The translations under genes were made by a program, and so were the position numbers. A DNA stretch of 64,000 bases, from the NCBI GenBank assembly GCA_011911785.1, contig GCA_011911785.1_4084.1; one strand, given 5' to 3'. Shown in pieces: positions 5,246 to 26,134 of the stretch; position 1 is the first letter of the stretch; each line of letters begins with the position of its first letter. The stretch comes from a phage. The notes under the pieces are model-generated. The model was not told the DNA's origin, did no database searches, and saw nothing but the letters and a program-made list of their open reading frames with translations.

Positions 5246-5296
5246 ATCAATAGCACCTCTAAATAATGTATATAAACATTAAAGAGGTGCTTTTTT

Positions 5297-6088: not shown

Positions 6089-6096
6089 AATAAAAA

Positions 6097-6121: not shown

Positions 6122-6137
6122 CATATACGGTGATATA

Positions 6138-6395
6138 ATGACAATTGAATATGCAAAATTCAGATGTGGAAAATTAAGCGACAATTATTTCGAATCAGAA
6201 CAGTACTGGCGATTTATCAAAAATGCATTAGTAGATGTATTCACCAGGGATGTAATTAACGCATGGGCAAGTATATGCAGGGATGATAATGGAAAAACAT
6301 TTTATGTTGTATATGTGTCAGTATACAACGGTAATGAAACTATTATTGATATAGTTAGAAGCTTAGTTGGTGATGAATATATGAAGGAAGTGTAA
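6138..6395 (+). CDS. Hypothetical protein (~85 aa)
   Basis: ORF track 6081..6395 begins inside the upstream terminator; ATG 6138 is the first start after it. Confidence 0.45.
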   Translation: MTIEYAKFRCGKLSDNYFESEQYWRFIKNALVDVFTRDVINAWASICRDDNGKTFYVVYVSVYNGNETIIDIVRSLVGDEYMKEV

Positions 6396-6397
6396 CT

Positions 6398-7024
6398 ATG
6401 GAAAGAAAAATCGTAGCCATCAATGGCTCAATAGGAAGTGGTAAAGATACATACGCTAAAACATTCATCGATAATGGATATACCCGTATGTCGTTTGCAA
6501 AGAACCTGAAAGATTCAGTTGCAGCTATTTTTGGCTGGGACAGAGAAATGCTTGAAGGAACTACTAAAGAAGGTCGTGCTATTCGTGAACAACCGGATCA
6601 GTACTGGTGTAATAAATTAGGACGTGATGATGTTTCACCACGTTGGGTACTGCAAAATTACGGTACTAATGTAGTTCGTCGTTATTTGCATAATGACATT
6701 TGGGTATTCAGTTTAGAACGTTCTATGATGGAAATAGAAGGTAACATTATCATTACTGATTGTCGTTTTCCAAATGAATTGAAAATGATTCGTGAAAATA
6801 ACGGTATCATCATTGAAGTTCAACGTAATTTACCATTCTGGTATGGTCTAGCAGCATCATACAATAAAGGTGATATCCAAATGAAACCAGTTGAACTGGA
6901 ATCAGTACATGAATCTGAATGGGCATGGATTGGTATTAACAACCCACATTATATTATCAAGAATAATGGAACTATAAAAGACCTAGAAAACAAAGCACTG
7001 GATATTATTTATACGAAAAACTGA
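6398..7024 (+). CDS. Deoxynucleoside monophosphate kinase (T4 gene 1-like)
   Basis: P-loop AINGSIGSGKDT; size and layout like T4 dNMP kinase. Confidence 0.6.
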   Translation: MERKIVAINGSIGSGKDTYAKTFIDNGYTRMSFAKNLKDSVAAIFGWDREMLEGTTKEGRAIREQPDQYWCNKLGRDDVSPRWVLQNYGTNVVRRYLHNDIWVFSLERSMMEIEGNIIITDCRFPNELKMIRENNGIIIEVQRNLPFWYGLAASYNKGDIQMKPVELESVHESEWAWIGINNPHYIIKNNGTIKDLENKALDIIYTKN

Positions 7025-7118
7025 TAAAAAATCAATTAGCTCAAGTCAATTAAATCCACCAATAAATAAGACTATACGAAATATATTCGAATAACCAATT
7101 ATTTTTGGAGGATTTAAT

Positions 7119-9782
7119 ATGGCAGGAGAACTCCTATCGCCTGGCGTTTCCATTTCAGTTACTGATGAAAGTATGAGCACTGCTTCCGCACCTGGAACAG
7201 TACCACTATTCATCATTGCTACCGCAGAAGATAAATTAGTACCAGGTAGCAACACAATCGCTGCTGGAACCACAAAAGCAAATGCTGGTAAGTTGCAACT
7301 TCTAACTTCTCAGAAAAGTTCACTAGACACTTACGGCACACCGATTTTTCAATCAAGTAATGGTTCAGTTGTTCAAGGTGACGAACTAAACGAATACGGC
7401 CTACATGCTGCTTATTCTTACCTTGGTATTACTAACCGTGCTTATGTTGTACGTGCAGATATCGACTTAGCACAACTATCACCTTCTGCTACTGCTCCAA
7501 CTGGTCCAGTACCAAACGGTACATTGTGGCTAGATGTTGCTCAATCACAAGTTGAAGCATATGTTTCTAAAGTGGATTCACCAACCAGTTTCTATGACTG
7601 GCAACTAAAACCAGTAACTATTGTTAGTGCTGAAGAAGTTAGTGATGTTAGCCTAGTTGGTATTAACGTTGACGATCTAGTACTACGTTATAAGCCAAGC
7701 AATGGTCAAATGCTAATGTACAAACGTGCAGCATCTGGTCTAGTTCAAGTTGAAACTTACCTTTCACCAATCAACAAAGTACCAGTAGGTAATACAGTTG
7801 AGAAAGGTAATATCTGGATTCGTGATGGTTACACTCAAAATGGTGCTAATTACTTCGGTACTCGTTTTGTTATTAAACGTTATGCATCCCTAACTCAAGT
7901 TTGGAATCAAGTACAAGCATTCACTGGTAACAGTTTCCAAGAAATTGAATCCAAAAGTGGTGTTCTAAATAACAGCTTCATCGCTACTCGTTTTGACTGG
8001 GATAGTAAGAGTTTCTCTTTCTATATTCAAAGTGCAAAATTACCAGCACTAAGTGCTCCAGCGATTCCAGTTGGTGAAACTGTAGTTGTTCAAGCAGACC
8101 AAGATTCTTACTTGACTTTCTCTTATTTGACCAAAACTGTTAAAGTACTAGCAGTTGCACTAGGTGGTGTTATTAACACTCAAACTATTCTTGACAATCT
8201 AAATGCTTCATCTGAACTAATCAATGATGGCTTTAAATTTAAAAGAGAAAGTAATGGTGGCCTAGTAATTAATAGTTCTAAAGGTTATAGTTTCAAAACT
8301 GCACAAAGTGGTAGTGTACTATTTGATGAAGATGAATTTGCAAAACTAACTGTTGATAGTAATAACTATGCTTTGATTAACGTTAACAATTTCCGTGTTG
8401 ATAGTAACGTTCCACGTAGTATCGCTAAAGAAGGTACTCTATGGTATGATTTCAGTAATTCTGATAATCTAAATGTTACCATGTATCTAGCTGATGTTGC
8501 TAATGACAAATGGGTTGAAGTTGACGAAGCTAACAAATATGTGCAAGTTGACGAACCTGCTGCTGACCGTACAATCTGGGTTTCTCCTAAATCACAAGGT
8601 ATTGATGGCTACGATTTCTATCGTAATGTTAATGGTGAGTGGGTTAAACTTGACAGTACTGACCAAAGTACACTAAACGGTATGATCTTCAAGGACTTTA
8701 ACTTCCCTGAACAAGTTCCTGCGGCTGCTCTATACCAAAACGGTATGCTCGCAATCGACCTTGGAAATACTGAAGGTGTGGTTAAGAAAATGATCGATGG
8801 ATTTTGGCATGTTGTCAGTGGTGTTGGTCTTGATGGGAATGGCTTGTTTGGTCGTGCTGCTCAACGCCAATTGGTAGTAGAAGCACTAAATGCAGTTATC
8901 GTTGGAAACGATGATATCCGTTCTGAATTCATTGACTTTAACCTAATTTCTGTTCCTGGTTATGTTGAATGTTTAGATGAGTGTGTGACCCTAAACACCG
9001 ACCGTAAAGAAACTGCTTTCATCGTAACTGATGTTCCAGCACGTTTGAACCCAACTGGTAACGGTAATGCTGTTCAACAATGGGCAACTAACGCAAATAA
9101 CGCACCAAGTAATGGTGATGTTGGTCGTACTACTGCATATGATTATGCTGCTCAATATATGGGCTGGTGCTTAAGTACTAACGTTGATGGTGAAGAAGTT
9201 GCAGTTCCTGGCAGTACTATTGCAATGCGTACCTATGCATACAGCGACAGCGTAAGTTATGTATGGTATCCACCTGCTGGTACTACTCGTGGTGTTGTAA
9301 CAAACGCTGCATCTGTAGGCTTCATCAATGATGAAGGTGAATATCAGCCAGTGGTTTATAACCAAGGTCAACGTGATGTAATGTACACCAACAACATTAA
9401 CCCAATTGCAATGCGTCCAAATCGTGGTTTGCTAGTATATGGTGATAAAACACTATCTCCTAACCAAACTTCCGCATTAAGCCGTGTTAACGTTGCACGT
9501 TTAGTTGTTTATATTCGTCGTCAACTAGAAATTATTTCTGAACCATTCCTATTCCGTTTGAATACTCCAAGTACTCGTCAGGAATTCAGTGGTGTAGTTA
9601 ATAGCTTCCTAGCTGAAATCGTTCAACAACAAGGTCTATATAACTTCGCAGTTGTTTGTGATGAAAGTAACAACACCTCCGAGCGTATTGACCGTAACGA
9701 ACTTTGGATGGATATCGCAATCCAACCTACTAAGTCTATCAACTTCATTTACGTACCGATTCGTATTGAAAAGACTCAATAA
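7119..9782 (+). CDS. Tail sheath protein (gp18-like)
   Basis: N-terminal LLSPGV and C-terminal VVCDESNNTSERIDRNE...IQPTKSINFIYVP match conserved T4 gp18 termini; strong GGAGGA SD. Confidence 0.9.
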   Translation: MAGELLSPGVSISVTDESMSTASAPGTVPLFIIATAEDKLVPGSNTIAAGTTKANAGKLQLLTSQKSSLDTYGTPIFQSSNGSVVQGDELNEYGLHAAYSYLGITNRAYVVRADIDLAQLSPSATAPTGPVPNGTLWLDVAQSQVEAYVSKVDSPTSFYDWQLKPVTIVSAEEVSDVSLVGINVDDLVLRYKPSNGQMLMYKRAASGLVQVETYLSPINKVPVGNTVEKGNIWIRDGYTQNGANYFGTRFVIKRYASLTQVWNQVQAFTGNSFQEIESKSGVLNNSFIATRFDWDSKSFSFYIQSAKLPALSAPAIPVGETVVVQADQDSYLTFSYLTKTVKVLAVALGGVINTQTILDNLNASSELINDGFKFKRESNGGLVINSSKGYSFKTAQSGSVLFDEDEFAKLTVDSNNYALINVNNFRVDSNVPRSIAKEGTLWYDFSNSDNLNVTMYLADVANDKWVEVDEANKYVQVDEPAADRTIWVSPKSQGIDGYDFYRNVNGEWVKLDSTDQSTLNGMIFKDFNFPEQVPAAALYQNGMLAIDLGNTEGVVKKMIDGFWHVVSGVGLDGNGLFGRAAQRQLVVEALNAVIVGNDDIRSEFIDFNLISVPGYVECLDECVTLNTDRKETAFIVTDVPARLNPTGNGNAVQQWATNANNAPSNGDVGRTTAYDYAAQYMGWCLSTNVDGEEVAVPGSTIAMRTYAYSDSVSYVWYPPAGTTRGVVTNAASVGFINDEGEYQPVVYNQGQRDVMYTNNINPIAMRPNRGLLVYGDKTLSPNQTSALSRVNVARLVVYIRRQLEIISEPFLFRLNTPSTRQEFSGVVNSFLAEIVQQQGLYNFAVVCDESNNTSERIDRNELWMDIAIQPTKSINFIYVPIRIEKTQ

Positions 9783-14972: not shown

Positions 14973-16445
14973 ATGCTTAAATTATTCAGTACTGAAAGTA
15001 CGGTAGTTCCTAATGGGTATATCTATACTTCCCATACTGGAGCAAAATATGTCTTCTTAGAAGGTATGTGGTTCAATGATAGTAATATGATGATGGTTGA
15101 TCCACAAAAATATCCAAATATGTATGCTTGTGCTCGACAACAAATTGTTGAGCACAACAATAAATCAAACACTGCATTTAAAATTGGCGAAAACTATCTT
15201 CACAATGGAAAAGAGTGTACGTTCATCGGTGAAAGCCGCTTCCATAGTGATGACGGTACTATTCTTTCTGAAAGTGAAGTTATTACAGAACTAATGGGTG
15301 ATGAACAACGTGTATATCAAGTTTCCAAAGAAACTCTACAAAAAGAGTGGAGTACTTTGAAATTTTATATTCTACCCCCACATGCACAAGATATTTCTAT
15401 CCCAGCAGGTATGGTAGTTCAAGGATATAAGTTTATTCCTAACAGTCATCGCTTTGTTGAACTAAAAAGCGGTCGCCCTGTAAGCCCAGAAATGACACGT
15501 AAGCTAAGTGAAGAAGGTCTTCGCATTGCTCGCCAATTATCTACAAACAATAAGCTAATCCCATTGAAATCTGTATTGATTCAAGGTAATGTTCGTTCTG
15601 AATGGAACGGTAAAGAATTTTGCGATAATGACGGTAATGTGGTAGTATCTGAACAAGGCTCGAAAGCTATTTTCCAAGCATATTCACAGTTCGTTAAGGC
15701 AAATCCTGAAGATTTTCCTTCTTTAACTGGTGCTAGTACTGGTGAAGAACAACGTTTTGGTTCTGTACCGAAGCCAGAAAAAGTTACCGAAGCTGAAGAT
15801 GAACCAGCAGTTGGTGTACCAGATGGATACCGTTTTACTTCTGGTAAAAACAAAACTTATGCTAAACAACGTGGTGCTTGGTTTGATGTTGAAACTAAAA
15901 AACAACTAAATTCAGGTGCTGCACAAAGTATTGAGCGTGCTGCACAACAAGCTATTCTTAAACATAACGAATCCGGTGCAATGAAAATCGGAACAAAAGT
16001 TACTTCTAAGAAAGGCAAAGAATATGTATACGTTGGTGGTGATCGATTCATTGGTCCAGATGGTAAAATGATTCCAAAAAGTGCTGCACAAGCTATTCTG
16101 GATCGTTTTGAATCTTCTAAATCAGAGAATGAACCTAAACCAAATGACGCACCACAAGAAGAACCAAAAGCACAAGAAGAACCTAAACCTGAAGCACAGG
16201 CTGAACCGAAAGAAGAACCAAAGGAAGAGCCTAAACCAGAACCGACCCCTGAACCAGAAGTTGAGCAAGGGAATGGTATGGAAGCACTTGCATCACAAAT
16301 TAAATCTTCTCCTTATGCGAAAAAGATTACAGTACTGCTAACCCGTGGTGATAAGGTTTCTTTACTAGCCGCTGACATTCTATTAGCTGGTAATAAAGAT
16401 GAAGTAGTGCAGATTTTAAAATCATTAAATAATAATGATGAATAA
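14973..16445 (+). CDS. Hypothetical protein with internal ~35-aa repeats and a PE/PK-rich linker
   Basis: Repeated pattern G-x-K-E/Y...RF...DG in four places; linker EPKPNDAPQEEPKAQEEPKPEAQAEPKEEPKEEPKPEPTPEPE. Confidence 0.55.
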   Translation: MLKLFSTESTVVPNGYIYTSHTGAKYVFLEGMWFNDSNMMMVDPQKYPNMYACARQQIVEHNNKSNTAFKIGENYLHNGKECTFIGESRFHSDDGTILSESEVITELMGDEQRVYQVSKETLQKEWSTLKFYILPPHAQDISIPAGMVVQGYKFIPNSHRFVELKSGRPVSPEMTRKLSEEGLRIARQLSTNNKLIPLKSVLIQGNVRSEWNGKEFCDNDGNVVVSEQGSKAIFQAYSQFVKANPEDFPSLTGASTGEEQRFGSVPKPEKVTEAEDEPAVGVPDGYRFTSGKNKTYAKQRGAWFDVETKKQLNSGAAQSIERAAQQAILKHNESGAMKIGTKVTSKKGKEYVYVGGDRFIGPDGKMIPKSAAQAILDRFESSKSENEPKPNDAPQEEPKAQEEPKPEAQAEPKEEPKEEPKPEPTPEPEVEQGNGMEALASQIKSSPYAKKITVLLTRGDKVSLLAADILLAGNKDEVVQILKSLNNNDE

Positions 16446-16458
16446 CTAAAAGGATTTA

Positions 16459-17409
16459 TTGAAAATGGCAAAAAAAATTAATGAAGCACAGGTTAAAATT
16501 GATATTGCTGGTCTAGAATCTGATGATCTAGAAGCACTATCCCGTATGCTTGCACTAGCTGGTCAAGCTGAAAAGCAATCATCCGTAGCACCTACTGTTT
16601 CTCCAATCGCTCCACTTGACTTCGGTTCTTTTGGTGGTTCAGCGGAAGAACCAGAAGTTGTTGCTCCAGAAATGGGTGCTGATGTAGCACCTGTTCCAGA
16701 AATTGGTGAAGAAGACCCACTAGCACAAGCTGTTGATGATCTATCTGGTTCAGTAACTGATTTCGGTGCTGATGCAGAAGGTGAAGCTGACATTCCAGTT
16801 ATCGATGTTGAAGCTCCTGGTGAAGAAGATGAACTTTCTCTTGACATGAGTGGTCAACCTAAGCTAGAATCTACTCTATCAGATGAAGACGATGAAGTTA
16901 TTGAAGAAGAATTCGATTTCGGTCGTATGATGTCTCTAGCTGGTCTTCCTGTTACTGAAGCAGTAGATGAAGATGAAGAAGAAATTGAAGAAGAAGTTAC
17001 TGAATCTCAAATCCTTCCTGACCTAAGTCTAGAAGAAGAGAGTCCAGCACTTGACACAACTGATTTTGGTCCTTTCCGTTCTGAATACGATGCTGTTCAA
17101 GATGGTCAAGCTAAAACCAATGGTGTTGAAGGTGATAACTTCATCGTAGTTCCTAAAGGAAACCAATTCTACTGGAGACGTGTTGTTCAAGAAGAACTTG
17201 ACAATGTTCCAAATCCAGAAGAATATGATAATGAAGGTAATGTACATCGTGTACATGAATTCAAGCCAAAAGCACCTGGTACTGCTCTAGGTGATAACCC
17301 ACTTAATGTTTACGAAGCTGAAGAAGAAGAGTCTGAAGAAGACGAATCTGTAGAAGACATTTTTGAAAGTCTCCAAAGTAAGTACAATAAGTTTCTAGGA
17401 GATAAGTAA
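16459..17409 (+). CDS. Highly acidic protein (316 aa)
   Basis: Very high Asp/Glu content with runs such as EEEESEEDESVED. Confidence 0.55.
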   Translation: MKMAKKINEAQVKIDIAGLESDDLEALSRMLALAGQAEKQSSVAPTVSPIAPLDFGSFGGSAEEPEVVAPEMGADVAPVPEIGEEDPLAQAVDDLSGSVTDFGADAEGEADIPVIDVEAPGEEDELSLDMSGQPKLESTLSDEDDEVIEEEFDFGRMMSLAGLPVTEAVDEDEEEIEEEVTESQILPDLSLEEESPALDTTDFGPFRSEYDAVQDGQAKTNGVEGDNFIVVPKGNQFYWRRVVQEELDNVPNPEEYDNEGNVHRVHEFKPKAPGTALGDNPLNVYEAEEEESEEDESVEDIFESLQSKYNKFLGDK

Positions 17410-17410
17410 T

Positions 17411-17812
17411 ATGTCATACAACTATCGTGAACTAGTGGAATCACTAGATGCGATTATGGCAGAAGAAGAAGTTCCTCAAGAAGAAAATGGTATCGTTGTC
17501 CAAGAAGATTCGGACAACGTTATCGTTGATTTACTAAAGGAAATCACTACATCTTTAGTTGCTTTAGTTGATAAAGCAAAAGAAGAAGGTTCTGACCATA
17601 AAGAAATCGCAGAAAAACTTAAAAAAGCATGTGACATTTTGGCAGATGTGGAATATAATGATGACTTAGAAGCAAAAGACAGTACTAAAGAAATTGAAGA
17701 AGATTTCGGTACTGAAGATATGGCTCCTAAAGTTGACAGTGAAGGTCATCGTAGCTATAAAGTTAAAGATGCTCCTTCTTATGCTGCCAGACAAGGTTTT
17801 GTGGGGATGTAA
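17411..17812 (+). CDS. Acidic protein (133 aa)
   Basis: ORF track; start coupled to upstream stop. Confidence 0.5.
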   Translation: MSYNYRELVESLDAIMAEEEVPQEENGIVVQEDSDNVIVDLLKEITTSLVALVDKAKEEGSDHKEIAEKLKKACDILADVEYNDDLEAKDSTKEIEEDFGTEDMAPKVDSEGHRSYKVKDAPSYAARQGFVGM

Positions 17813-17814
17813 TT

Positions 17815-18159
17815 ATGATACCACAACCCACTAACAGCACTGAATTTCAAAATGAAGTACTTATAAAAGTTAAAGAAGTACATGAATCGGACGCTGAAAT
17901 CACTGACAGAATGCTTCTGATGTCTATTTTTGAAAACTTCAGAACTGGTGGTGGTTTGAGGCTTAGTAAGTATGGATTTATGATTTGTGAAGAAAATAAT
18001 CTTTATGAATTTACAAAAATCCCCTTGCTAAGAGAGTTCAAAAGCTCTATAATATTTACATCGCTTGATAGAATATGTAGAAGTCCTTATTATGTTGATG
18101 GCTACTACATATATCTCTCCGATGCAATGGTAGTTACTGAATTAACATTGTGTCGGTGA
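17815..18159 (+). CDS. Hypothetical protein (114 aa)
   Basis: ORF track. Confidence 0.5.
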   Translation: MIPQPTNSTEFQNEVLIKVKEVHESDAEITDRMLLMSIFENFRTGGGLRLSKYGFMICEENNLYEFTKIPLLREFKSSIIFTSLDRICRSPYYVDGYYIYLSDAMVVTELTLCR

Positions 18160-18223
18160 TGATTTCAAGCAGTTATTTTCGATGCATATGTAGAACGCTT
18201 CGAAAATAAAAATGAAAAAGATG

Positions 18224-18251
18224 TTGACAGTACAGATTAACGTGATATAAT
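18224..18251 (+). promoter_or_regulatory. Sigma70-like promoter P1 (TTGACA - 16 nt - TGaTATAAT)
   Basis: ttgaca 18224-18229, extended -10 tgatataat ending 18251. Confidence 0.6.
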
Positions 18252-18316
18252 GAACGTCACGAAGCAAGATTTCAAAATCACAAGATGTGAGATTGAAAAA
18301 GAAAGAAAAAAAGTTG

Positions 18317-18344
18317 TTGACAAGCCTGAACGATGTGATATAAT
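18317..18344 (+). promoter_or_regulatory. Sigma70-like promoter P2 (TTGACA - 16 nt - TGaTATAAT)
   Basis: ttgaca 18317-18322, tataat 18339-18344; near duplicate of P1 93 bp downstream. Confidence 0.6.
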
Positions 18345-18511
18345 GACCACATCAAGACGGCAAACAAGATTGACCTTTTTAAACACACGGATGATTCACT
18401 GAAGATAAGGAACTGATAAGTTAAAATACTTTTAACACAGTTCCTTTACTTTTGCCAACGGATTGGTTATAATATAAACCTAGTTTTTTATCCAACAAAA
18501 GGAAAATACAC

Positions 18512-19837
18512 ATGAGCGAACAACAAGATATCCTGAACGTAAAACTGACTCCTAAGAAAGCAAAAATGGCTATGGCTCTGGCAGATAAAATTCAGGATAG
18601 TCTGATGATTTGGGGTAGCCCTGGTATCGGTAAGTCTGCGATTGCACGTCAATACGCTGACGAGAACTATCCTCTTCGTAAGGATAACTTGGCTAAAATC
18701 GAGTTCATGAAACAACAAATTGAAGTTGATACTGAAAATGCTGATGCACTTCGCCGCGAACTGGCAGCGTTTGAAGCAAAACTGATTGACCAAGACACTA
18801 ACTTCATCGACTTCCGTTTGTCACAGATTGAACCAAGTGACCTACGTGGTATCCCAGTCCCTGAAAAAGTGTTCCTGGATATGGATGGCAAACAACTGAT
18901 TGAATCTGAACTGGAAACAGCTAAAGATTACATTGCTGAAACAGCAGTTGTATGGGCAGCACCTAAAGTACTGAAACTGTCTCCAGATTGGAAAGGTGTT
19001 ATCCTGTTTGACGAAATTAACTCTGCTATGCCGATTGTACAGGCAGCGTCTTATCAGCTAATCCTCGACCGTTGTGTTGGTGAGATGAAGCTACCTAAGA
19101 CTGCACTGATTCTCGCAGCAGGTAACCGTGAAACTGATGGCGGCGTAACGTTCTCTCTGGCAACGCCACTACGTGACCGTATGACCCACATCGAAATGGT
19201 TCCTTACCATCAAGATTGGATTGACGATTACGCGATTGCTAAGCGTTTGAACCCAGGTACTGTTGCGTTCATCAACAACACTGGTGCTAAGTACTTCAAC
19301 ACCCTTAGCCCACAAGATCCTTCTCACAGTGGTGGTACTTCTCCACGTTCATGGGAAGCAGTAGCACGCTACGAAGACCTGAAGAAAGGCAACAACATTG
19401 ATAAAGAAGTGTTCCGTGCTCTAATCGCTGGTCGTGTTGGTGAAGGTGTAGCAACTGAATATATCGAATACGTAGAAAACGTATCTAAACTACCAGATAC
19501 TATGTCCATCCTACAGGGTGAGATTAAAGAGATTGATGCAACGCTGGATATTTCTGCGAACTACTTCATCTCTCTGAATCTGGTTTATAAAATTATCGAC
19601 CTGTACAATGAGAAGCAAGAACAACGTCTTCCAGTTGAAGAGTGGGGCAAGCTGTGCAACAACTTCATCACCTTCCTGGACCGTAACTTCTCCGAAACTC
19701 AGGCAGAACTGGCAGTACTAGCAATTCGTACCATCACTCAACATAAGGTAGCGATTGCGTACAAAGATGTTCCAGCGTTCAAAGACTTCGTTATGAAGTA
19801 CTCTGACCTAGTACGCAAAGCACGTTCTCTTGGTTAA
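18512..19837 (+). CDS. MoxR-like AAA+ ATPase
   Basis: Walker A GSPGIGKS, Walker B ILFDEIN, single AAA module, 441 aa. Confidence 0.85.
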   Translation: MSEQQDILNVKLTPKKAKMAMALADKIQDSLMIWGSPGIGKSAIARQYADENYPLRKDNLAKIEFMKQQIEVDTENADALRRELAAFEAKLIDQDTNFIDFRLSQIEPSDLRGIPVPEKVFLDMDGKQLIESELETAKDYIAETAVVWAAPKVLKLSPDWKGVILFDEINSAMPIVQAASYQLILDRCVGEMKLPKTALILAAGNRETDGGVTFSLATPLRDRMTHIEMVPYHQDWIDDYAIAKRLNPGTVAFINNTGAKYFNTLSPQDPSHSGGTSPRSWEAVARYEDLKKGNNIDKEVFRALIAGRVGEGVATEYIEYVENVSKLPDTMSILQGEIKEIDATLDISANYFISLNLVYKIIDLYNEKQEQRLPVEEWGKLCNNFITFLDRNFSETQAELAVLAIRTITQHKVAIAYKDVPAFKDFVMKYSDLVRKARSLG

Positions 19838-19911
19838 TAACTAAAAGAATGTTTGACAAGAAGGATGCCACATGGTATCCTTCTTTTATCTTAACTAAAC
19901 GAGGAAATATC

Positions 19912-21315
19912 ATGTCCGATAAGAAATTTAGCGACGTAACACCACAACTCCAGAAAGAATGCCAAGACCGTTTGATTCTTGCTCGTACTTCTCTGATGTT
20001 AACTGCTCCATTCTTTGGTGTACTGGCTTCACGTCTGCGTCCAGTTGCAAACAATACATGGTGTCGTACCTTAGCAGTAGATGGTAAACATTTATTCTAT
20101 AACGTAGAATTTATCATGGGTATTCAAGACCCAAGCAAGAAAGAAGCATACGAAGAAGCAATTCGTGAGAAGCATCCTGAAGTAACTGAAGAACAATTGA
20201 AAGAAATGACCGAAGGTTTGACTGATGAAAACCTGATTGCAGTTATCTGTCATGAAATTCTTCACTGTGCATACGATCACTTCCTTCGTCGTGGTATGCG
20301 TGACCCACAACGCTACAACCGTGCAGCAGACTACGCAATCAACCAAATTATTGTTCGTGAAAAAATTGGTAAGATTCAAAGTCAATGGTTGTATGATAAG
20401 AAGTATGATGGTATGACCGCCGAAGAGATTTATATTCTTCTAGAAGAAGAAGATAAACAAGATCAAGATGAAGGTGAAGGACAACCACAATCTGGTAGTG
20501 GTGAAGGTGAAGGTAAATCACGCGGTACTTTTGGTGATATCCAAAATGGTAAAGGCAAAGGCACTACCATTGACCAACACGATGTACCACAAGATGGTGA
20601 AGGTGGTGCATCTGAAGCACAAAAACGTGAATACATGGACGATTTCAAAACAGCAATGATGAATGCTGCTCGTGCAGGTGGTACTCCTGCTGAAATCGCT
20701 CGTATGATCAATAACTTTAAAGAACCAAAAATTGACTGGCGTTCTAAACTTCAACGTACTCTTCGTAGCTGGTTGAAGTCCGATGCGACCTATCAAAGCC
20801 CAAGCCGCCGTTCGTGGGGTGCTGGTTTTGGTTCTAACGGTTCATTCTACGGGAATCCAATCTTCCCAGGTATGAAACCAGATGACGATATTGATATTGC
20901 AATTGCACTCGATGCATCAGGCTCTATCAGTGAAGATATGCTTCGTGATTTCATCAGTGAAGTACTAGGCATCACTAAACAATTCAAGCAGTTTAAAATT
21001 CGTATCATGACATTTGATACTGAAGTTTATACTGTGATGGATTATAAAACTGGTGAAGAACGTAAGATTCTTGAATATCCAGTTAAAGGTGGTGGCGGTA
21101 CTGACTTTGAAGCAGTTTGGGTTCACATGAAGCATGACAATTATAAGCCTAAACAGCTTATCATGTTTACCGATGGTGAACCGTGGCAGTCATGGGGTGA
21201 TCCTAACTACTGTAAAACACTGTTTGTGATTCACAGTAACCCGAACAAAGTAGCACCATTTGGTGAAACTGTTCACTACGAATATGAAGCGGACAAAAAA
21301 CGCCAACGTTCGTAA
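19912..21315 (+). CDS. VWA-domain protein with N-terminal HExxH (DUF2201-type putative metallopeptidase) domain
   Basis: HEILHCAYDH motif; MIDAS motif DASGSIS; ORF track 19849..21315, ATG 19912 after GAGGA. Confidence 0.8.
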   Translation: MSDKKFSDVTPQLQKECQDRLILARTSLMLTAPFFGVLASRLRPVANNTWCRTLAVDGKHLFYNVEFIMGIQDPSKKEAYEEAIREKHPEVTEEQLKEMTEGLTDENLIAVICHEILHCAYDHFLRRGMRDPQRYNRAADYAINQIIVREKIGKIQSQWLYDKKYDGMTAEEIYILLEEEDKQDQDEGEGQPQSGSGEGEGKSRGTFGDIQNGKGKGTTIDQHDVPQDGEGGASEAQKREYMDDFKTAMMNAARAGGTPAEIARMINNFKEPKIDWRSKLQRTLRSWLKSDATYQSPSRRSWGAGFGSNGSFYGNPIFPGMKPDDDIDIAIALDASGSISEDMLRDFISEVLGITKQFKQFKIRIMTFDTEVYTVMDYKTGEERKILEYPVKGGGGTDFEAVWVHMKHDNYKPKQLIMFTDGEPWQSWGDPNYCKTLFVIHSNPNKVAPFGETVHYEYEADKKRQRS

Positions 21316-21325
21316 AAATAAATAT

Positions 21326-21355
21326 AGAGAACGATTCGTCGTTCTCTTTTATTTT
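21326..21355 (+). terminator. Rho-independent terminator
   Basis: Perfect 9-bp stem agagaacga/tcgttctct, loop ttcg, followed by tttatttt. Confidence 0.75.
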
Positions 21356-21361
21356 ATAATT

Positions 21362-21389
21362 GGGACAACCCAATTAACTATGATATAAT
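21362..21389 (+). promoter_or_regulatory. Sigma70-like promoter (GGGACA - 16 nt - TGaTATAAT)
   Basis: gggaca 21362-21367, tataat 21384-21389; -35 lies inside palindrome aattgggacaacccaatt (21358-21375). Confidence 0.5.
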
Positions 21390-21422
21390 GGAAATTGTAA
21401 TAACATACATGGAGAGTAATAT

Positions 21423-21665
21423 ATGAGTACTGAAAACAATGCACAAGACGAAGTAATCCTAGACCTAGTTGACCTAATCAACGCTGCTCGTATTATGGAA
21501 TCTGCGGTTGCACGTAATGCGTTTCAAGTTGATGAACTAGTGAACGTAGCACCAATTGTTTCCAAGTTCGTTAAATTTGCTGATAAAGCACTTGCTGATA
21601 TCAAAGAACGTGAAGAAGCTGCTGCTCAAGCACAAGATACCGCTGGTACAGAAGGGGAAGAATAA
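21423..21665 (+). CDS. Hypothetical protein (80 aa)
   Basis: ORF track; GGAGAG SD. Confidence 0.5.
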   Translation: MSTENNAQDEVILDLVDLINAARIMESAVARNAFQVDELVNVAPIVSKFVKFADKALADIKEREEAAAQAQDTAGTEGEE

Positions 21666-22321
21666 TGGCTGCTATTCGTCACACAGGTGTAATTCGTAAT
21701 ACTGGTTCTCGTGTTTTCGTTGTTTGGCGTTCACTTCCAGATGATCATGATCATTGTCTAGTTGTGTATCGTGACTCACTTCCAGAAGCATATGTATCTG
21801 CTGTAACCGATTTAGTTATGGGTCGTGGACAAGCTTCTGTTGAACTTTGGGAAGTTATGCATCAAGTAGGTTATCTCGATGGTCGTAAAATGCTAGATGT
21901 TCTTCACAATCTACAATATCTACGTAAAGTCCGTACTTGTGATATTGACATGCACACTGGCGGTAACAACAAGATTTCACTTGATGTACTGAATGATGCA
22001 ATCGACGGTAATGAAAGTAAAAAACATGAAGATGGTAAAGTAAAAGATTACAACCCATTCAATCCACAAGTTCAAGATACAAAAGTCGAAGATGAAACTA
22101 TTGTTGATGAACTACTAAAAACTGCTGCAAAATATGATCAACTAGCTAAAGAGCATTATGAGCGTGCTTATAACCTAGAACCTTCTCTTCGTCCCAACGA
22201 AACGATTGTGAAAACTGATTCTGATAAGAAAGTTTTTTACATTGAACTTCCAGAAGGTATTTCTCAAACCAAAGCAATTGAGAAACTAAAACTTGTTTTT
22301 GCAGAGCGTAAGAATGGCTAA
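21665..22321 (+). CDS. Hypothetical protein (218 aa)
   Basis: ORF track. Confidence 0.5.
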   Translation: MAAIRHTGVIRNTGSRVFVVWRSLPDDHDHCLVVYRDSLPEAYVSAVTDLVMGRGQASVELWEVMHQVGYLDGRKMLDVLHNLQYLRKVRTCDIDMHTGGNNKISLDVLNDAIDGNESKKHEDGKVKDYNPFNPQVQDTKVEDETIVDELLKTAAKYDQLAKEHYERAYNLEPSLRPNETIVKTDSDKKVFYIELPEGISQTKAIEKLKLVFAERKNG

Positions 22322-22619
22322 AGTTACTAGAGAAGATATCATTCTCAAAATAACTGAAGAAAGACAGAAACAAATAGATAATCCAAATACATTATCTGAT
22401 ACACTTAAAACAAAGAATGATTGGGCTTCCTTATGTGCCTATTATCTCTTCGAAGGGGCAACTCGCCCCGATAAGCATGTATCATTCGATGAATTTAGAG
22501 AGTCCTTAATCAAAGCTGGTGCTGTCATTTTGGCAGCCCTTGAAACCAGTTTCGCATTAGAGGATGAGAAATTACAAGAATTAATGTCTGCTTTGGAACA
22601 TAAGAATGACGATAAATGA
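22314..22619 (+). CDS. Hypothetical protein (~101 aa)
   Basis: ORF track 22293..22619; ATG 22314 overlaps upstream stop. Confidence 0.5.
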   Translation: MAKVTREDIILKITEERQKQIDNPNTLSDTLKTKNDWASLCAYYLFEGATRPDKHVSFDEFRESLIKAGAVILAALETSFALEDEKLQELMSALEHKNDDK

Positions 22620-24136: not shown

Positions 24137-24162
24137 GGGAGACAAATGTCTCCCTTTTTTTT
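24137..24162. terminator. Bidirectional rho-independent terminator between convergent genes
   Basis: Hairpin gggagac-aaat-gtctccc flanked by A-run upstream and T8 downstream. Confidence 0.75.
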
Positions 24163-26134
24163 ATTTCACGGTTACTAATGTTCTTCCTGCAAAACGAACA
24201 TCAGGAGAAGAAGGAATACTATAAACTACACCAGTTAATGTAAACTTAACACTATCAACATCAACTTTAACAAATTCATCAGTTGCTACTTGTTCTTGAA
24301 TTTCAGCATTAACTATATCAGTTTCTGGAACTGTCAGTCTGTAATATGCACCATCAAGTACCCAATTATCAACAGTGAATAATGTAGTTCTTACTGTACC
24401 AGAACCAATCGGAACCCATTTACCATCAACTTTCTGCATTGATGTTCTATTCTGTTCAGAGTACGCAATCATACCATCAACACCTTCACTGTCATTAACA
24501 GTTGTTAGTACTGGTAATTGGATACCATAACGGTTAATACGTGTACGCAACACATTACTGTCATATATAGATAAATCCGCATAACCACGAACATCCATAC
24601 GCAATTCACCGTTTAGTAGTTTCATATTAATATCGTTGGTAACGTGTGCAAATCTAAATGAATTACCACTGGTTAGCAGGATTCCATTAAAATTATTATT
24701 AGCATTGTTAAAATTAGTTTCTTTATTAAACGTGGACACCGAGTTAACTGTTAATAAATTAGTTGAACTACCAGTTCCTAATATAGTATTCCCTTTAACG
24801 TTCAAATTACCATTAGTTGTAACATTTGAAACCGCCGTAACATCACCCGTTAAAGTACTAATACCATCAACTTCTAAGTTTCCATGTAATTTGGTTACAC
24901 CATTTTGCATTTCAACTTGTACTTTGTTCATAGAACTAAATGACAAAATATTATTTTCCCCACTAATACCAACATTTGTATTAGAATTATTAGCAAAACG
25001 TAATGTTGGTGCGGTTGCGGGTGCAGTGGTGCTTTGATATAAATTCAAAGAACCGTTTGTTACTCGCACACGTTCAACACCTGCTGTGGTTAAACCAATA
25101 GCGGCATCTGCTGGGTGGAAAATACCAGTTTTTGTGTCAGTCCATTTACTTGGATCGTTTCCTGGGTTAGTATTTGGGTCATATGGAGCGTTATTAAAGC
25201 CTATAGCTGGCTCTGTAGCACTACCATAAGTTACCCCTAGTCTTCCTTTGCCTATCAGTCCATCATCAACCATAGAGTCACCAGTGCGGCGTAAGCCCTC
25301 TAATACGAGGTTATCTAAGGTAGTTTGAACTGTACCTGCGTTGGTACTGAATTGACGTTGACTACCAACCATGATAGTGTTATCATACAGTACTGAAGAA
25401 GCTGAAATACTAGCTCTTGACTGACGTAGGCGAATGTTTTTAGTTTCAGTGATGATAATCCAGTCACTATCAGCTAATGCAGTTTGGCCTTGTGGTGTCA
25501 AAGATGTATCAAAAGGTGTAGTGATTGATTCGTCTTGTGCCAAATTCACAAGACCTTCATGACCACTTGCTGGGATTGCAGTTGTTACAATACGAGCAAA
25601 CGCATAACTTACCAATTTTTTAGTTGGTTCAATTGGGTTTTGATCTATATAATATAGAATTTCAATCCAATCACCTTGACCAGTTGGGTTCACTGGTGTG
25701 AATTTAACTGGGCTGGTTGTAGGGGTATTTTGTGTATAGTGCTCTTGTGCGGCATCCATAATACCACGAACTACATAATAATCACCATTCAAAGAAACTG
25801 ATGGTGCAGGTAATGCAGCATAGGATGCTGGTGGGTTTGTATCATCTTCAATTGCATCATATGTACCAAGGAATTGCAATCCACTTGTTACAGAATCTGG
25901 TAATTGAGATGACAATAGTTTACCATTTGCATCTAGGTTTGCAAAACGTCTATACGCAACTGAACCATCTTCAAATTCGAGAACACCTTCGAATGCTTTC
26001 CATTCAGTGTTGTATCGAATCATACCTGTACGCATTTGGTCTGCTGTTACTATCGTTGGGGCTTTTGGTAGTTCAAGGAATGCTTTGCTATCTATGATAA
26101 CACCACCATCACCACGAATTCTATTAATTGACAT
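24161..26134 (-). CDS. Tail fibre protein (657 aa)
   Basis: ORF track; Thr/Asn/Gly-rich repetitive C-terminal half typical of fibre shafts; first gene of the fibre block. Confidence 0.5.
   Translation of the reverse strand: MSINRIRGDGGVIIDSKAFLELPKAPTIVTADQMRTGMIRYNTEWKAFEGVLEFEDGSVAYRRFANLDANGKLLSSQLPDSVTSGLQFLGTYDAIEDDTNPPASYAALPAPSVSLNGDYYVVRGIMDAAQEHYTQNTPTTSPVKFTPVNPTGQGDWIEILYYIDQNPIEPTKKLVSYAFARIVTTAIPASGHEGLVNLAQDESITTPFDTSLTPQGQTALADSDWIIITETKNIRLRQSRASISASSVLYDNTIMVGSQRQFSTNAGTVQTTLDNLVLEGLRRTGDSMVDDGLIGKGRLGVTYGSATEPAIGFNNAPYDPNTNPGNDPSKWTDTKTGIFHPADAAIGLTTAGVERVRVTNGSLNLYQSTTAPATAPTLRFANNSNTNVGISGENNILSFSSMNKVQVEMQNGVTKLHGNLEVDGISTLTGDVTAVSNVTTNGNLNVKGNTILGTGSSTNLLTVNSVSTFNKETNFNNANNNFNGILLTSGNSFRFAHVTNDINMKLLNGELRMDVRGYADLSIYDSNVLRTRINRYGIQLPVLTTVNDSEGVDGMIAYSEQNRTSMQKVDGKWVPIGSGTVRTTLFTVDNWVLDGAYYRLTVPETDIVNAEIQEQVATDEFVKVDVDSVKFTLTGVVYSIPSSPDVRFAGRTLVTVK

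What the first reader, a model, noticed from the sequence alone, without database searches (positions are those of the whole stretch)
18160..21355. Autonomous MoxR-AAA+/VWA-HExxH cassette inside a phage structural region
ORF 18512-19837 is a MoxR-type AAA+ ATPase (GSPGIGKS, ILFDEIN). The next ORF has an N-terminal HEILHCAYDH (HExxH, DUF2201-type putative metallopeptidase) domain and a C-terminal VWA domain with MIDAS motif DASGSIS. This is the cellular MoxR-VWA chaperone-like pair, not a T4 core module. It has its own 350-bp ORF-free leader with two tandem near-consensus promoters and its own strong terminator, so it looks like an independently expressed early cassette. Its role in infection is unknown; activation or remodelling of a host or phage complex, or counter-defence, are possibilities.
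Basis: partly seen in the sequence, partly recalled or inferred. Interest (0 to 1): 0.8.

Follow-up and report, generated by a model that had tools for sequence, protein, structure and literature searches.

The report
Jumbo-phage MoxR ATPase plus VWA-peptidase operon
This is the already described, widely conserved phage gene pair (N4 gp24/gp25 type) that encodes a MoxR-like motor ATPase and a metal-peptidase/VWA adaptor, here in the E. coli jumbo phage A4; its function is still untested, and what is new here is its stepwise-attenuated early operon structure.

Summary
The window is Escherichia phage A4, a 355-kb RaK2-like jumbo phage. ORF 18512-19837 is an AAA+ ATPase whose nearest solved folds are the MoxR proteins NorQ and CbbQ. 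The next gene most likely starts at 19912, not 19849. It encodes a DUF2201_N domain (invariant HExxHxxxxH) plus a VWA domain with a complete MIDAS site.

This is not an odd cellular import. It is the N4 gp24/gp25-type pair, found in more than 700 phage genomes. It is a core gene pair of N4-like phages and was already reported for this jumbo-phage group (Iyer et al. 2021). phAPEC6 annotates it as "MoxR ATPase / N4 gp25-like".

New here:
- The two perfect sigma-70 promoters belong to the phage's early promoter class.
- They feed a conserved leader that ends in a terminator hairpin with compensatory changes across at least four named genera.
- A second terminator-like hairpin sits between the two genes. 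It recurs in 18 of 35 distinct gaps, against 4% of shuffles.
- Three uncharacterised neighbour genes are co-conserved with the pair.
- The ATPase, but not its partner, was found in virion proteomes of two relatives.

Most likely function: an ATP-driven remodelling and processing machine expressed before late genes, probably acting on virion components. The client is unknown.

The parts
17815..18159 (+). 114-aa gene (A4_559, phrog_15638, unknown function). It lies directly upstream of the ATPase and is co-conserved with it. In A4 a 1-nt insertion truncates the C-terminus.
   Evidence: Homologues lie directly upstream of the ATPase, on the same strand, in 63 of 80 related loci. No Pfam or PDB match.
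18202..18253 (+). Promoter unit P1: A-rich UP-like tract, -35 TTGACA (18224-18229), 16-nt spacer with TG, -10 TATAAT (18246-18251).
   Evidence: 12 of 12 match. It is one copy of a 52-nt direct repeat spaced 93 nt apart. It is conserved in Asteriusvirus and in RaK2.
18295..18346 (+). Promoter unit P2: A-rich tract, -35 (18317-18322), -10 (18339-18344), followed by CACATCAAGAC.
   Evidence: 12 of 12 match. It shares the ACATCAAG motif after the -10 with the perfect promoters of the A4 early region. Phage SP27 carries the unit twice.
18351..18453 (+). Leader RNA, about 100 nt from the inferred P2 start. It contains a conserved ACGGAU box (18387-18392) and ends in the terminator hairpin and U-tract.
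   Evidence: The leader is conserved at about 80% across Asteriusvirus. It has no Rfam match and no conserved ORF.
18407..18446 (+). Leader terminator/attenuator hairpin (arms AAGGAACUG / CAGUUCCUU), followed by UUUACUUUUG.
   Evidence: Free energy -15.8 kcal/mol, z -5.0. All nine stem pairs are kept in 12 phages, apart from one terminal U-U mismatch in RaK2. There are two compensatory double changes and one paired deletion. The distance to the ATG is fixed at 56-71 nt. The G17 record annotates a terminator at this position.
18445..18473 (+). Weak proximal promoter P3 (TTTACT-17-TATAAT). A second ACGGAU box at 18458-18463 lies within it.
   Evidence: 10 of 12 match. The -10 is conserved in the Escherichia and Klebsiella phages but not in the Salmonella, Erwinia or Cronobacter relatives.
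18512..19837 (+). MoxR-like AAA+ ATPase (A4_560, 441 aa; N4 gp24 type).
- Walker A: residues 35-42.
- Walker B: D167/E168.
- Candidate sensor 1: N205.
- Candidate arginine finger: R223.
- Candidate sensor 2: R279.
- Two clade-specific insertions: about residues 53-92 and 117-140.
   Evidence: phrog_1297, E 6.5e-106. The AF2 model has pLDDT 84. The Foldseek top 10 are all NorQ chains, with CbbQ2 at rank 20. Distant homologues carry Pfam AAA_3, AAA_5 and PF20030.
19858..19885 (+). Intercistronic terminator-like hairpin (12-bp stem) with a U-run, between the ATPase and VWA genes.
   Evidence: Free energy about -18 kcal/mol, z -4.1. It is conserved in RaK2 with a compensatory change. Non-homologous hairpins with T-runs sit at the same position in the Salmonella, Erwinia and Cronobacter relatives. 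It is present in 18 of 35 distinct gaps, against 4% of shuffles.
19912..21315 (+). Zincin-like DUF2201_N + VWA protein (A4_561, 467 aa; N4 gp25 type).
- Metal motif: H114-E115-x-x-H118, plus H123.
- Acidic, Gly-rich disordered linker containing an invariant D221-x-H223.
- MIDAS site: D334-x-S336-x-S338, T397, D421.
21326..21355 (+). Strong intrinsic terminator ending the unit.
   Evidence: 9-bp stem, UUCG loop, U-rich tail, z -4.2. The G17 record annotates a terminator at this position.
21362..21389 (+). Promoter of the next operon (GGGACA-16-TGATATAAT).
   Evidence: The same type of promoter occurs at 2502-2529 and in front of the Salmonella phage 7t3 leader.
21423..21665 (+). 80-aa acidic helical protein (A4_562, phrog_13789), co-conserved downstream of the VWA gene.
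   Evidence: Homologues lie downstream in 39 of 80 loci.
21665..22321 (+). 218-aa protein (A4_563, phrog_15894), co-conserved downstream.
   Evidence: Homologues occur in at least 18 loci, a count limited by the ends of the loci. No Pfam or PDB match. The phAPEC6 homologue gp262c gave 1 peptide in virion mass spectrometry.

Best explanation
The region is the gp24/gp25-type MoxR-VWA operon of a RaK2-like jumbo phage.

Shown:
- The ATPase has all the AAA+ catalytic motifs, and its closest solved folds are MoxR proteins (NorQ, CbbQ).
- Its partner has an invariant HExxHxxxxH zincin-type motif, a disordered acidic linker, and a VWA domain with a complete MIDAS site.
- The two genes are an obligate adjacent pair in hundreds of phages.

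Inferred regulation:
- Two tandem early-class sigma-70 promoters fire on host RNA polymerase at the start of infection.
- Most transcripts end at the conserved leader terminator, giving RNAs of about 100 and 195 nt.
- Read-through transcripts, plus those from the weak P3 promoter, express the ATPase.
- A second, partial terminator lowers expression of the VWA-peptidase. This fits a hexamer-to-one-adaptor stoichiometry.
- A strong terminator closes the unit.

Inferred mechanism, by analogy with NorQ-NorD and CbbQ-CbbO:
- One VWA adaptor docks on the ATPase hexamer.
- Its MIDAS site grips an acidic residue of a client protein.
- ATP hydrolysis pulls on the linker or the client.
- The zincin domain then cuts the client.

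Most likely clients are phage proteins destined for the virion, so the pair would act as a maturation chaperone-protease made before the late genes.

Likelihoods: identity of the proteins about 0.95; attenuated operon about 0.6; MoxR-VWA remodelling with proteolysis about 0.55; virion-protein client about 0.35.
For: Identity:
- Pfam and PHROG hits and invariant catalytic and MIDAS residues.
- The top structural matches of the ATPase are NorQ and CbbQ.
- 58 of 80 related loci carry the VWA gene directly downstream. Most of the rest are truncated contigs.

Expression before late genes:
- P1 and P2 match the A4 early-promoter family.
- In the relatives GAP32, L017 and Erwinia the leader promoter instead has the TGAAAC(G/A) -35. 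The CBB paper associates that class with DNA-synthesis genes.
- N4 gp24 and gp25 are middle transcripts.
- Related pairs sit among thymidylate synthase, DHFR, dUTPase, ribonucleotide reductase, DNA polymerase and RNase H genes.

Attenuation:
- The leader hairpin covaries. In relatives that lack P3 the promoter lies upstream of the hairpin.
- Intercistronic terminators recur with unrelated sequences.

Mechanistic template:
- In NorQD, a finger of the VWA domain enters the pore of the hexamer and the ATPase remodels the adaptor's linker.

Link to the virion:
- Mass-spectrometry-verified virion proteins are encoded directly upstream in RaK2-like phages.
- The ATPase was detected in virion proteomes of phAPEC6 (6 peptides, 19% coverage) and of PA5oct.
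- N4-like roseophages have a mid-phase 'second structural module' next to gp24/gp25.
- Iyer et al. proposed virion assembly with peptidolytic processing.
Against: - No experiment on any member of the family was found.
- Virion detection may be carry-over of abundant proteins. Thymidylate synthase was detected in the same phAPEC6 preparation, and the CBB virion proteome lists neither protein of the pair.
- Expression before late genes, and the neighbourhood of nucleotide-metabolism genes, fit a non-structural role at least as well.
- The zincin fold of the N-terminal domain was not confirmed by fold search. VWA matches filled every listed rank in both searches of the full-length model, and no solved relative was found by sequence.
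- Termination efficiency is unknown, so the hairpins could instead stabilise RNA or bind a protein.
- The leader hairpin is absent from PA5oct-like relatives.
- The 6:1 stoichiometry is borrowed from other MoxR systems.
Confidence: 0.45

Rival explanations
1. Host take-over or counter-defence protease. The complex is made early in order to seize and cut a host protein, such as a defence, nucleoid or transcription factor, rather than phage proteins.
For: - The promoters are early-class and are used by unmodified host polymerase.
- The pair sits among early and middle genes in N4, rV5-like and other phages.
- It is widely distributed in unrelated virulent phages.
Against: - PADLOC gave only a marginal hit for the ATPase (IetA, E 0.02) and none for the VWA protein.
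- A host-directed weapon would be expected to vary with the host. Instead this is a conserved core pair with fixed phage-encoded neighbours across hosts ranging from E. coli to roseobacters.
- Detection of the ATPase in virions is not explained, unless the protein is injected.
Confidence: 0.22
2. Cofactor-insertion or enzyme-activation chaperone, as in NorQD, CbbQO and the CobST/BchID chelatases, serving a phage nucleotide-metabolism or replication enzyme. The His-rich motif would bind or deliver a metal rather than cut peptides.
For: - The closest solved systems are metal-insertion or activase machines.
- The pair is repeatedly linked to thymidylate synthase, dCTP/dCMP deaminase, DHFR, dUTPase and ribonucleotide reductase genes.
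- An acidic linker precedes the VWA domain, as in the chelatase D subunits. This comparison is from memory.
Against: - Pfam places the N-terminal domain in a putative metallopeptidase family.
- The invariant glutamate of HExxH is the catalytic base of zincins, a point from general knowledge.
- No single metallo-enzyme neighbour is common to all lineages.
Confidence: 0.1
3. The leader is an independent small-RNA gene. P1 and P2 exist mainly to make abundant RNAs of about 100 and 195 nt that end at the hairpin, while the protein genes are driven by P3 or by read-through from upstream.
For: - The only two perfect promoters in 64 kb sit here, and a conserved terminator follows them.
- The sequence between P2 and the hairpin is conserved.
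- The promoter unit has been duplicated again in SP27.
- Invariant GGA boxes flank the hairpin.
Against: - In the Salmonella, Erwinia and Cronobacter relatives no promoter is evident downstream of the hairpin. There the same promoter must also serve the ATPase gene.
- The fixed 56-71 nt distance from hairpin to ATG points to a cis-acting leader.
- There is no Rfam family match.
Confidence: 0.2
4. One reading: a recently acquired cellular MoxR-VWA cassette (a moron) that is foreign to the phage core.
For: - Cellular homologues exist. UniRef names the relatives after the Synechocystis plasmid genes sll7028/sll7029, and the N4 record notes similarity to Streptomyces proteins.
- The unit has its own promoters and its own terminator.
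Against: - Synteny is conserved across Asteriusvirus, Alcyoneusvirus, Eneladusvirus, GAP32 and the Salmonella phages.
- Three co-conserved neighbours accompany the pair in PA5oct-like jumbo phages.
- The pair has core status in N4-like phages.
- There is no match in 5,426 E. coli genomes.
Confidence: 0.03

Closest known systems
Phage N4 gp24 (AAA ATPase) / gp25 (vWFA protein), PHROGs 1297 / 1314
   Same: - Same two families, in the same order and on the same strand.
- They are core genes of N4-like phages and middle transcripts in N4.
- Their function is unknown.
   Different: - The A4 ATPase is about 80 aa longer, with two insertions.
- Identity of the VWA protein to its homologues in N4-like phages is only about 23-26%.
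- The sigma-70 promoter and attenuator leader of A4 has no counterpart in N4, which uses its own RNA polymerases.
- The three co-conserved neighbour genes were not found in N4.
MoxR-vWA(+metallopeptidase) pair of 'group 2.2' jumbo phages (Iyer, Anantharaman, Krishnan, Burroughs, Aravind 2021, Viruses 13:63)
   Same: This is that system. The paper describes a MoxR AAA+ ATPase and a vWA partner with an N-terminal metallopeptidase in the jumbo-phage group it.2, and predicts a role in virion assembly with peptidolytic processing.
   Different: The passages retrieved from the paper cover only the protein pair. The promoter, leader and intercistronic terminator architecture, the co-conserved neighbour genes, and the collation of virion-proteome data were worked out here.
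NorQ-NorD and CbbQ-CbbO (bacterial MoxR-VWA remodelling machines)
   Same: - They are the best structural matches for the ATPase.
- The NorD VWA domain matches the C-terminal domain.
- They provide the hexamer-plus-one-adaptor logic, in which the adaptor's linker is remodelled.
   Different: - Their adaptors have no zincin domain.
- Their clients are a respiratory enzyme and Rubisco.
- Sequence identity is about 12-14%.
- The phage ATPase has extra insertions and a larger C-terminal helical region.
Acidianus two-tailed virus p618 (MoxR) / p892 (VWA)
   Same: A viral MoxR-VWA pair tied to virion (tail) development, cited as a precedent by Iyer et al..
   Different: It is an archaeal virus, it has no peptidase domain, and no sequence comparison was run here.
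AAA+ metalloproteases (FtsH type) and CLCA-type zincin+VWA proteins
   Same: - Functional analogy: an AAA+ motor coupled to an HExxH protease, and a zincin fused to a VWA domain.
- The CLCA1 VWA domain is among the top fold matches.
   Different: - There is no homology beyond the shared domains.
- Here the motor and the protease are separate polypeptides joined through the VWA domain.
- The comparison with FtsH and with CLCA self-cleavage rests on general knowledge and was not tested.

Membership tests
MoxR-type AAA+ ATPase | Walker A, Walker B, sensor 1, arginine finger and sensor 2 are present and conserved. | tested here: met
   G35, G38, K41, S42, D167, E168, N205, R223 and R279 are invariant in 24 homologues. 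The roles assigned to N205, R223 and R279 are by position only.
MoxR-type AAA+ ATPase | The protein matches the MoxR Pfam profiles (AAA_3 PF07726 / AAA_5 PF07728) above threshold. | tested here: inconclusive
   The query itself scores only 17.7 bits on AAA_3 against a cut-off of 27, and AAA_5 does not hit. Homologues at E of about 1e-47 carry precomputed PF07726, PF07728 and PF20030 hits.
MoxR-type AAA+ ATPase | The closest solved structures are MoxR proteins. | tested here: met
   The Foldseek top 10 are all NorQ chains (E 6e-7 to 2e-6; TM-score normalised to the target 0.54-0.61). CbbQ2 is at rank 20. Generic AAA+ proteins follow closely.
MoxR-type AAA+ ATPase | A helix-2 insert and a pre-sensor-1 beta-hairpin are present (this criterion is from general knowledge of the AAA+ clade). 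| tested here: inconclusive
   The model has a long beta-hairpin (115-123 / 140-148) after helix 108-112, and short strands before strand 199-205. No residue-level superposition was inspected.
MoxR-type AAA+ ATPase | A VWA-domain partner is encoded next to the ATPase. | tested here: met
   The partner is adjacent in the window. 58 of 80 related loci have it directly downstream, and most of the rest are truncated contigs.
MoxR-type AAA+ ATPase | Hexamer formation and ATPase activity. | not testable with these tools
   Needs purified protein.
DUF2201-type zincin + VWA protein (PF13203 + PF09967) | Both Pfam domains score above their gathering scores. | tested here: met
   123.8 bits against a cut-off of 23.2, and 73.9 bits against 26.4. 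All 120 listed homologues carry PF13203, and all but one truncated protein also carry PF09967.
DUF2201-type zincin + VWA protein (PF13203 + PF09967) | The HExxH metal and catalytic motif is conserved. | tested here: met
   H114, E115, H118 and H123 are invariant in 22 homologues that are 41-82% identical to the query.
DUF2201-type zincin + VWA protein (PF13203 + PF09967) | VWA fold with a complete MIDAS site (DxSxS ... T ... D). | tested here: met
DUF2201-type zincin + VWA protein (PF13203 + PF09967) | The N-terminal domain has a zincin fold and peptidase activity. | tested here: inconclusive
   No solved relative was found by sequence. In both fold searches of the full-length model, VWA matches filled every listed rank, so the N-terminal domain was not resolved. 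Activity cannot be tested here.
N4 gp24/gp25 pair (PHROG 1297 / 1314) | Both proteins match the phage families, and the gene order is ATPase then VWA. | tested here: met
   E 6.5e-106 and 1.6e-125. tblastn reaches N4-like phages over about 95% of the length. RaK2 and phAPEC6 annotate the genes as gp24-like and gp25-like.
Intrinsic terminator / transcription attenuator (leader and intercistronic hairpins) | A stable stem-loop is followed by a U-run, and the structure is conserved through compensatory change. | tested here: met
   z -5.0 and -4.1. Leader stem: two compensatory pair changes, one paired deletion, and no broken pair apart from one terminal U-U mismatch in RaK2. Intercistronic hairpin: a compensatory change in RaK2 and non-homologous equivalents in other genera.
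Intrinsic terminator / transcription attenuator (leader and intercistronic hairpins) | Measured partial termination. | not testable with these tools
   No RNA-seq data for an Asteriusvirus were found. The text of the PA5oct paper does not cover this gene.
Early (RpoD-like + UP element) promoter class of RaK2-like phages | Consensus hexamers, an A-rich upstream tract, and the same sequence after the -10 as the promoters of the early region. | tested here: met
   The first 50 kb of A4 hold 12 perfect promoters. Most have a 16-nt spacer and ACATCAAGG after the -10, as P2 does. The class is described for phage CBB.
Known anti-phage defence or counter-defence systems (PADLOC) | A match to a defence-system protein model. 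| tested here: not met
   Only a marginal IetA hit (E 0.02) over the Walker A region, and nothing for the VWA protein.

The most novel reading that the evidence does not exclude
Two readings go beyond a plain operon.

First, the leader may be a conserved immediate-early regulatory RNA of enterobacterial jumbo phages. It would be made from the strongest promoter type the phage has. It ends in a covarying terminator flanked by invariant A(C/U)GGAU boxes. From memory, these boxes resemble CsrA-type GGA binding sites, and a third GGA lies at the ATPase ribosome-binding site. Such an RNA could gate the MoxR operon according to host state, or titrate a host RNA-binding protein.

Second, the MoxR hexamer plus the VWA-zincin may form a split ATP-dependent protease whose motor subunit is carried in the virion.
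Probability: 0.15. Interest if true: 0.6.

Novelty: already known. Interest (0 to 1): 0.33.

Why it matters
The pair is one of the few genes shared by N4-like podophages, rV5-like myophages and RaK2/PA5oct-like jumbo phages, and it is a core gene pair in N4-like phages. No function has been shown for it. Many records still label the VWA protein 'HNH endonuclease' or 'anti-sigma factor'.

Knowing what a MoxR motor coupled to a VWA-peptidase does in infection would fill a long-standing gap in phage core-gene annotation. It would also add a proteolytic variant to MoxR-VWA biology.

The regulatory layout found here gives concrete, cheap experiments: map transcript ends, mutate the hairpins, and trap substrates. 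As a discovery, however, the cassette itself is not new.

Tried and rejected
- **Rfam.** A permissive scan of 17000-22500 gave only a chance snoRNA hit, so the leader belongs to no known RNA family.
- **Sequence searches.** Direct searches of PDB, NCBIfam and PADLOC gave nothing useful for either protein. A profile search of PDB with the ATPase alignment matched only the Walker A region. The VWA-protein profile found no solved relative of the N-terminal domain.
- **Small ORFs in the leader.** The 50-aa ORF at 18250-18402 and a 3-codon mini-ORF were considered. The first starts inside the -10 of P1, the reading frames differ between relatives, and no peptide is conserved. Both were rejected.
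- **Hairpin as terminator of the upstream operon.** Rejected as the main role, because in every genus examined the promoter lies upstream of the hairpin.
- **N4 gp24-gp25 gap.** This 167-nt gap was inspected for an equivalent hairpin. It looks coding, and N4 uses different polymerases, so it is not comparable.
- **PA5oct RNA-seq paper.** It was read for the timing of the homologue gp335. The gene is not mentioned in the text and no supplement is held.
- **MAFFT alignment of the leader.** It misaligned the short-loop hairpins across genera, so the stem pairs were counted by script instead.
- **Prophage or cellular origin in E. coli.** There is no match in 5,426 genomes.
- **Co-conserved neighbours.** Pfam and PDB profile searches of the 114-aa and 218-aa families found nothing.

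Full report
**What the window is.** The stretch 18100-21400 is 99.9% identical to Escherichia phage A4 (ON286972.1), a 355.5-kb Asteriusvirus of the RaK2/121Q/PBECO4 jumbo-phage group. It is 85-89% identical to about 35 other Asteriusvirus genomes. A4 annotates the two genes as A4_560 'ATPase' and A4_561 'VWA domain-containing protein'.

**Checking the observation.**
- The second protein hits Pfam DUF2201_N (E 1.3e-35) and DUF2201 VWA-like (E 1.6e-20), both above the curated cut-offs.
- The ATPase is weak on Pfam. AAA scores 21.0 bits against a cut-off of 21.2, AAA_3 scores 17.7 against 27, and AAA_5 does not hit.
- Both proteins match phage families strongly: phrog_1297 (E 6.5e-106) and phrog_1314 (E 1.6e-125). 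The latter carries the label 'HNH endonuclease', although Pfam finds no HNH domain in this protein.
- The two promoters match 12 of 12 positions with TG extensions. They are the only exact TTGACA-N15-19-TATAAT sites in the 64 kb, where 0.29 are expected.
- The terminal terminator at 21326-21347 is a clean 9-bp stem with a UUCG loop and a U-run.
- The second gene most likely begins at 19912. That start has a GAGGA site at 19901-19905, is the GenBank start, and is where the N-termini of homologues align.

**Is the ATPase MoxR-type?**
- Single-sequence searches of PDB, NCBIfam and PADLOC gave nothing.
- A database search found 571 homologues. The jumbo-phage forms (about 440 aa) grade into forms of about 360 aa (E about 1e-47) that carry precomputed AAA_3, AAA_5 and bpMoxR (PF20030) hits.
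- In an alignment of 24 sequences, Walker A (G35, G38, K41, S42), Walker B (D167, E168), N205, R223 and R279 are invariant. The jumbo-phage forms have two insertions, at about residues 53-92 and 117-140.
- An AlphaFold2 model (pLDDT 84.4) finds NorQ chains as its ten best PDB matches, including the 2026 NorQ-NorD VWA complexes. CbbQ2 appears at rank 20, and generic AAA+ proteins follow closely.
- I accept 'MoxR-like' on fold, transitive homology and the obligatory VWA partner. The direct profile criterion is not met.

**The partner protein.**
- All 120 listed homologues carry PF13203, and all but one truncated protein also carry PF09967.
- Across 22 sequences that are 41-82% identical to the query, the following are invariant: H114, E115, H118, H123 (HExxHxxxxH); D221 and H223, in an otherwise disordered acidic and Gly-rich linker; and the MIDAS residues D334, S336, S338, T397 and D421.
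- The fold of the N-terminal domain was not resolved. No solved relative was found by sequence, and VWA matches filled every listed rank in both fold searches. 'Zincin peptidase' therefore rests on the Pfam family and the invariant motif.

**It is already known.**
- RaK2 annotates the homologues as 'N4 gp24-like ATPase' and 'gp25-like'.
- phAPEC6 annotates them as 'MoxR ATPase' and 'N4 gp25-like protein'.
- N4 gp24 and gp25 are two of the 14 core genes of N4-like phages. They are middle transcripts and have no known function.
- Iyer et al. 2021 reported for 'group 2.2' jumbo phages a MoxR AAA+ ATPase and a vWA partner with an N-terminal metallopeptidase. They proposed a role in virion assembly with peptidolytic processing, by analogy with the ATV p618/p892 pair.
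- tblastn finds the VWA protein in 708 phage records and an ATPase relative in 858. These include RaK2-like, PA5oct-like, Atu_ph07-like, rV5-like and N4-like phages.
- I found no experimental study of function.

**The leader is more than a leader.**
- P1 and P2 are copies of a 52-nt direct repeat spaced 93 nt apart. Each has an A-rich tract upstream. Phage SP27 carries the P2 unit twice, giving three promoters.
- The first 50 kb of A4, a run of small genes typical of an early region, hold 12 perfect promoters. Most have a 16-nt spacer and the motif ACATCAAGG after the -10. P2 has CACATCAAGAC in the same place. P1 and P2 are thus members of the phage's early promoter class. That class corresponds to the 'RpoD-like with UP element' promoters described for phage CBB.
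- A hairpin lies downstream of P2 at 18407-18446 (-15.8 kcal/mol, z -5.0), followed by UUUACUUUUG.
- Across 12 phages the stem keeps all nine pairs, apart from one terminal U-U mismatch in RaK2. The phages are from Asteriusvirus, Alcyoneusvirus, Salmonella phage 7t3, Eneladusvirus, GAP32 and a related uncultured contig. There are two compensatory double changes (A:U to C:G, and G:C to A:U) and one paired deletion.
- The U-tract is invariant, and the hairpin lies 56-71 nt from the ATG.
- In the Salmonella, Erwinia and Cronobacter relatives there is a single promoter upstream of the hairpin and no evident promoter after it. In three of these the -35 is TGAAAC(G/A), which the CBB paper associates with DNA-synthesis genes.
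- The hairpin therefore sits inside the transcript that must also express the ATPase. It is best read as an attenuator. In A4, 121Q and RaK2 a weak proximal promoter (18445-18473) is superimposed on it.
- PA5oct-like relatives lack this hairpin.
- An independent small RNA remains possible.

**A second attenuator lies between the genes.**
- The hairpin at 19858-19885 (12 bp, z -4.1) with a U-run is conserved in 121Q-type phages. In RaK2 it carries a compensatory change.
- The Salmonella, Erwinia and Cronobacter relatives have different GC-rich hairpins with T-runs at the same position.
- Over all related loci, 18 of 35 distinct ATPase-VWA gaps of 25-200 nt contain such a site, against 4% of shuffled gaps.
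- Positional conservation without sequence conservation argues for selection on the function. The likely effect is less VWA-peptidase than ATPase, which suits a hexamer with a single adaptor. That stoichiometry is inferred from NorQD and CbbQO, not shown here.

**The conserved module is larger than two genes.**
- An IMG/VR scan found 591 loci encoding relatives, and the best 80 were kept.
- In 58 of them the VWA gene follows directly on the same strand. Most of the others are cut by contig ends.
- The 114-aa gene upstream (17815-18159) has homologues directly upstream of the ATPase in 63 loci.
- The 80-aa and 218-aa genes downstream (21423-21665, 21665-22321) have homologues downstream in 39 and at least 18 loci.
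- These loci are PA5oct/Atu_ph07-like jumbo phages in which the ATPase is only about 30% identical.
- None of the three families has a Pfam or PDB match, and none was found in the N4 or rV5-like loci examined.
- In PA5oct and in a Vibrio jumbo phage, extra genes split the pair. In PA5oct one of them is a homing endonuclease.

**What it does.** No experiment exists, so this is inference. The template is the MoxR-VWA paradigm. In NorQD, a finger of the VWA domain enters the pore of the hexamer and ATP hydrolysis remodels the adaptor's linker. Here the adaptor carries an invariant zincin motif, so the simplest model is ATP-driven remodelling coupled to cleavage of a client held through the MIDAS site.

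Evidence that the client is a virion protein:
- Virion proteins verified by mass spectrometry are encoded directly upstream.
- The ATPase was detected in virion proteomes of phAPEC6 (6 peptides, 19% coverage) and of PA5oct (GenBank note 'ESI-MS/MS').
- N4-like roseophages have a mid-phase 'second structural module' beside gp24/gp25.

Evidence against a virion-protein client:
- Thymidylate synthase was also detected in the phAPEC6 preparation.
- The CBB virion proteome lacks both proteins.
- The most constant neighbourhood across lineages is nucleotide metabolism and replication, expressed before late genes.

I therefore put the assembly/maturation reading at about 0.35, a host-directed protease at about 0.22, and an enzyme-activation chaperone at about 0.10.

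**Verdict.** However, the cassette is a known, widespread phage module and not a cellular oddity. What the analysis adds is its regulatory anatomy and its extended conserved neighbourhood: early-class tandem promoters, a covarying leader attenuator, a recurrent intercistronic terminator, and three co-conserved neighbour genes. Interest is moderate. This is an unsolved core-gene function with clear experiments, not a surprise.

Noticed in passing
window 18387-18392 and 18458-18463 (also 18499-18502): Invariant A(C/U)GGAU boxes flank the leader hairpin in every genus examined, and a further GGA lies in the ATPase ribosome-binding site. The RaK2 and A4 5' boxes (CAAGGAUGA, ACACGGAUGA) resemble, from memory, the CsrA binding consensus. 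No test was run.
   Followed up: partly
window 18150-18200: The 114-aa gene ends early in A4 (...ELTLCR*). Relatives continue ...CCDDFKQLFSIHM*. One extra G (CGG in place of CG) shifts the frame. This is either a real frameshift or a sequencing error.
   Followed up: partly
window 18240-18262 and 18330-18357: Short dyad symmetries straddle the -10 of each promoter: CGTGA...TCACG at P1, GATGTG-N10-CACATC at P2, and TGTGA-N8-TCACA in 121Q. They may be operator sites. The right halves lie at about +1, so an RNA hairpin is unlikely.
   Followed up: no
L099 (A4 record 15.8-23.6 kb): The early region carries about ten perfect sigma-70 promoters, one in front of almost every small gene. They share AGTACT palindromes in and around the spacer and the motif ACATCAAGG(G/A)GA after the -10.
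   Followed up: partly
window 2502-2529 and 21362-21389; L011 1046-1075: A second promoter type, TGGGACA-N16-TGATATAAT, precedes the operon that contains thymidylate synthase and the Salmonella 7t3 leader. It may be the Asteriusvirus counterpart of the 'TGAAACG -35' class reported for CBB and GAP32.
   Followed up: partly
window 14973-17812: The three upstream genes encode extremely acidic, low-complexity proteins (PEEPK-type repeats and D/E runs). They are annotated as virion structural proteins, and their phAPEC6 homologues gp267c and gp268c were detected by mass spectrometry. They are candidate MIDAS clients, but this was not tested.
   Followed up: no
phrog_1314; many GenBank records: The VWA-peptidase is widely mislabelled 'HNH endonuclease', and in rV5-like phages 'anti-sigma factor'. 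Pfam finds no HNH domain in this protein. In one related contig a true HNH gene lies next to it (L095 12592-13140).
   Followed up: partly
L094 (PA5oct) 5168-7929; L013 (Vibrio phage) 1026-2537: In some jumbo phages inserted genes separate the ATPase and VWA genes. In PA5oct these include a putative homing endonuclease.
   Followed up: no
window 24161-26134 (- strand) and beyond: The block on the opposite strand, downstream of thymidylate synthase, encodes structural and tail-fibre proteins. The cassette therefore lies in a short non-structural island between two structural blocks.
   Followed up: no
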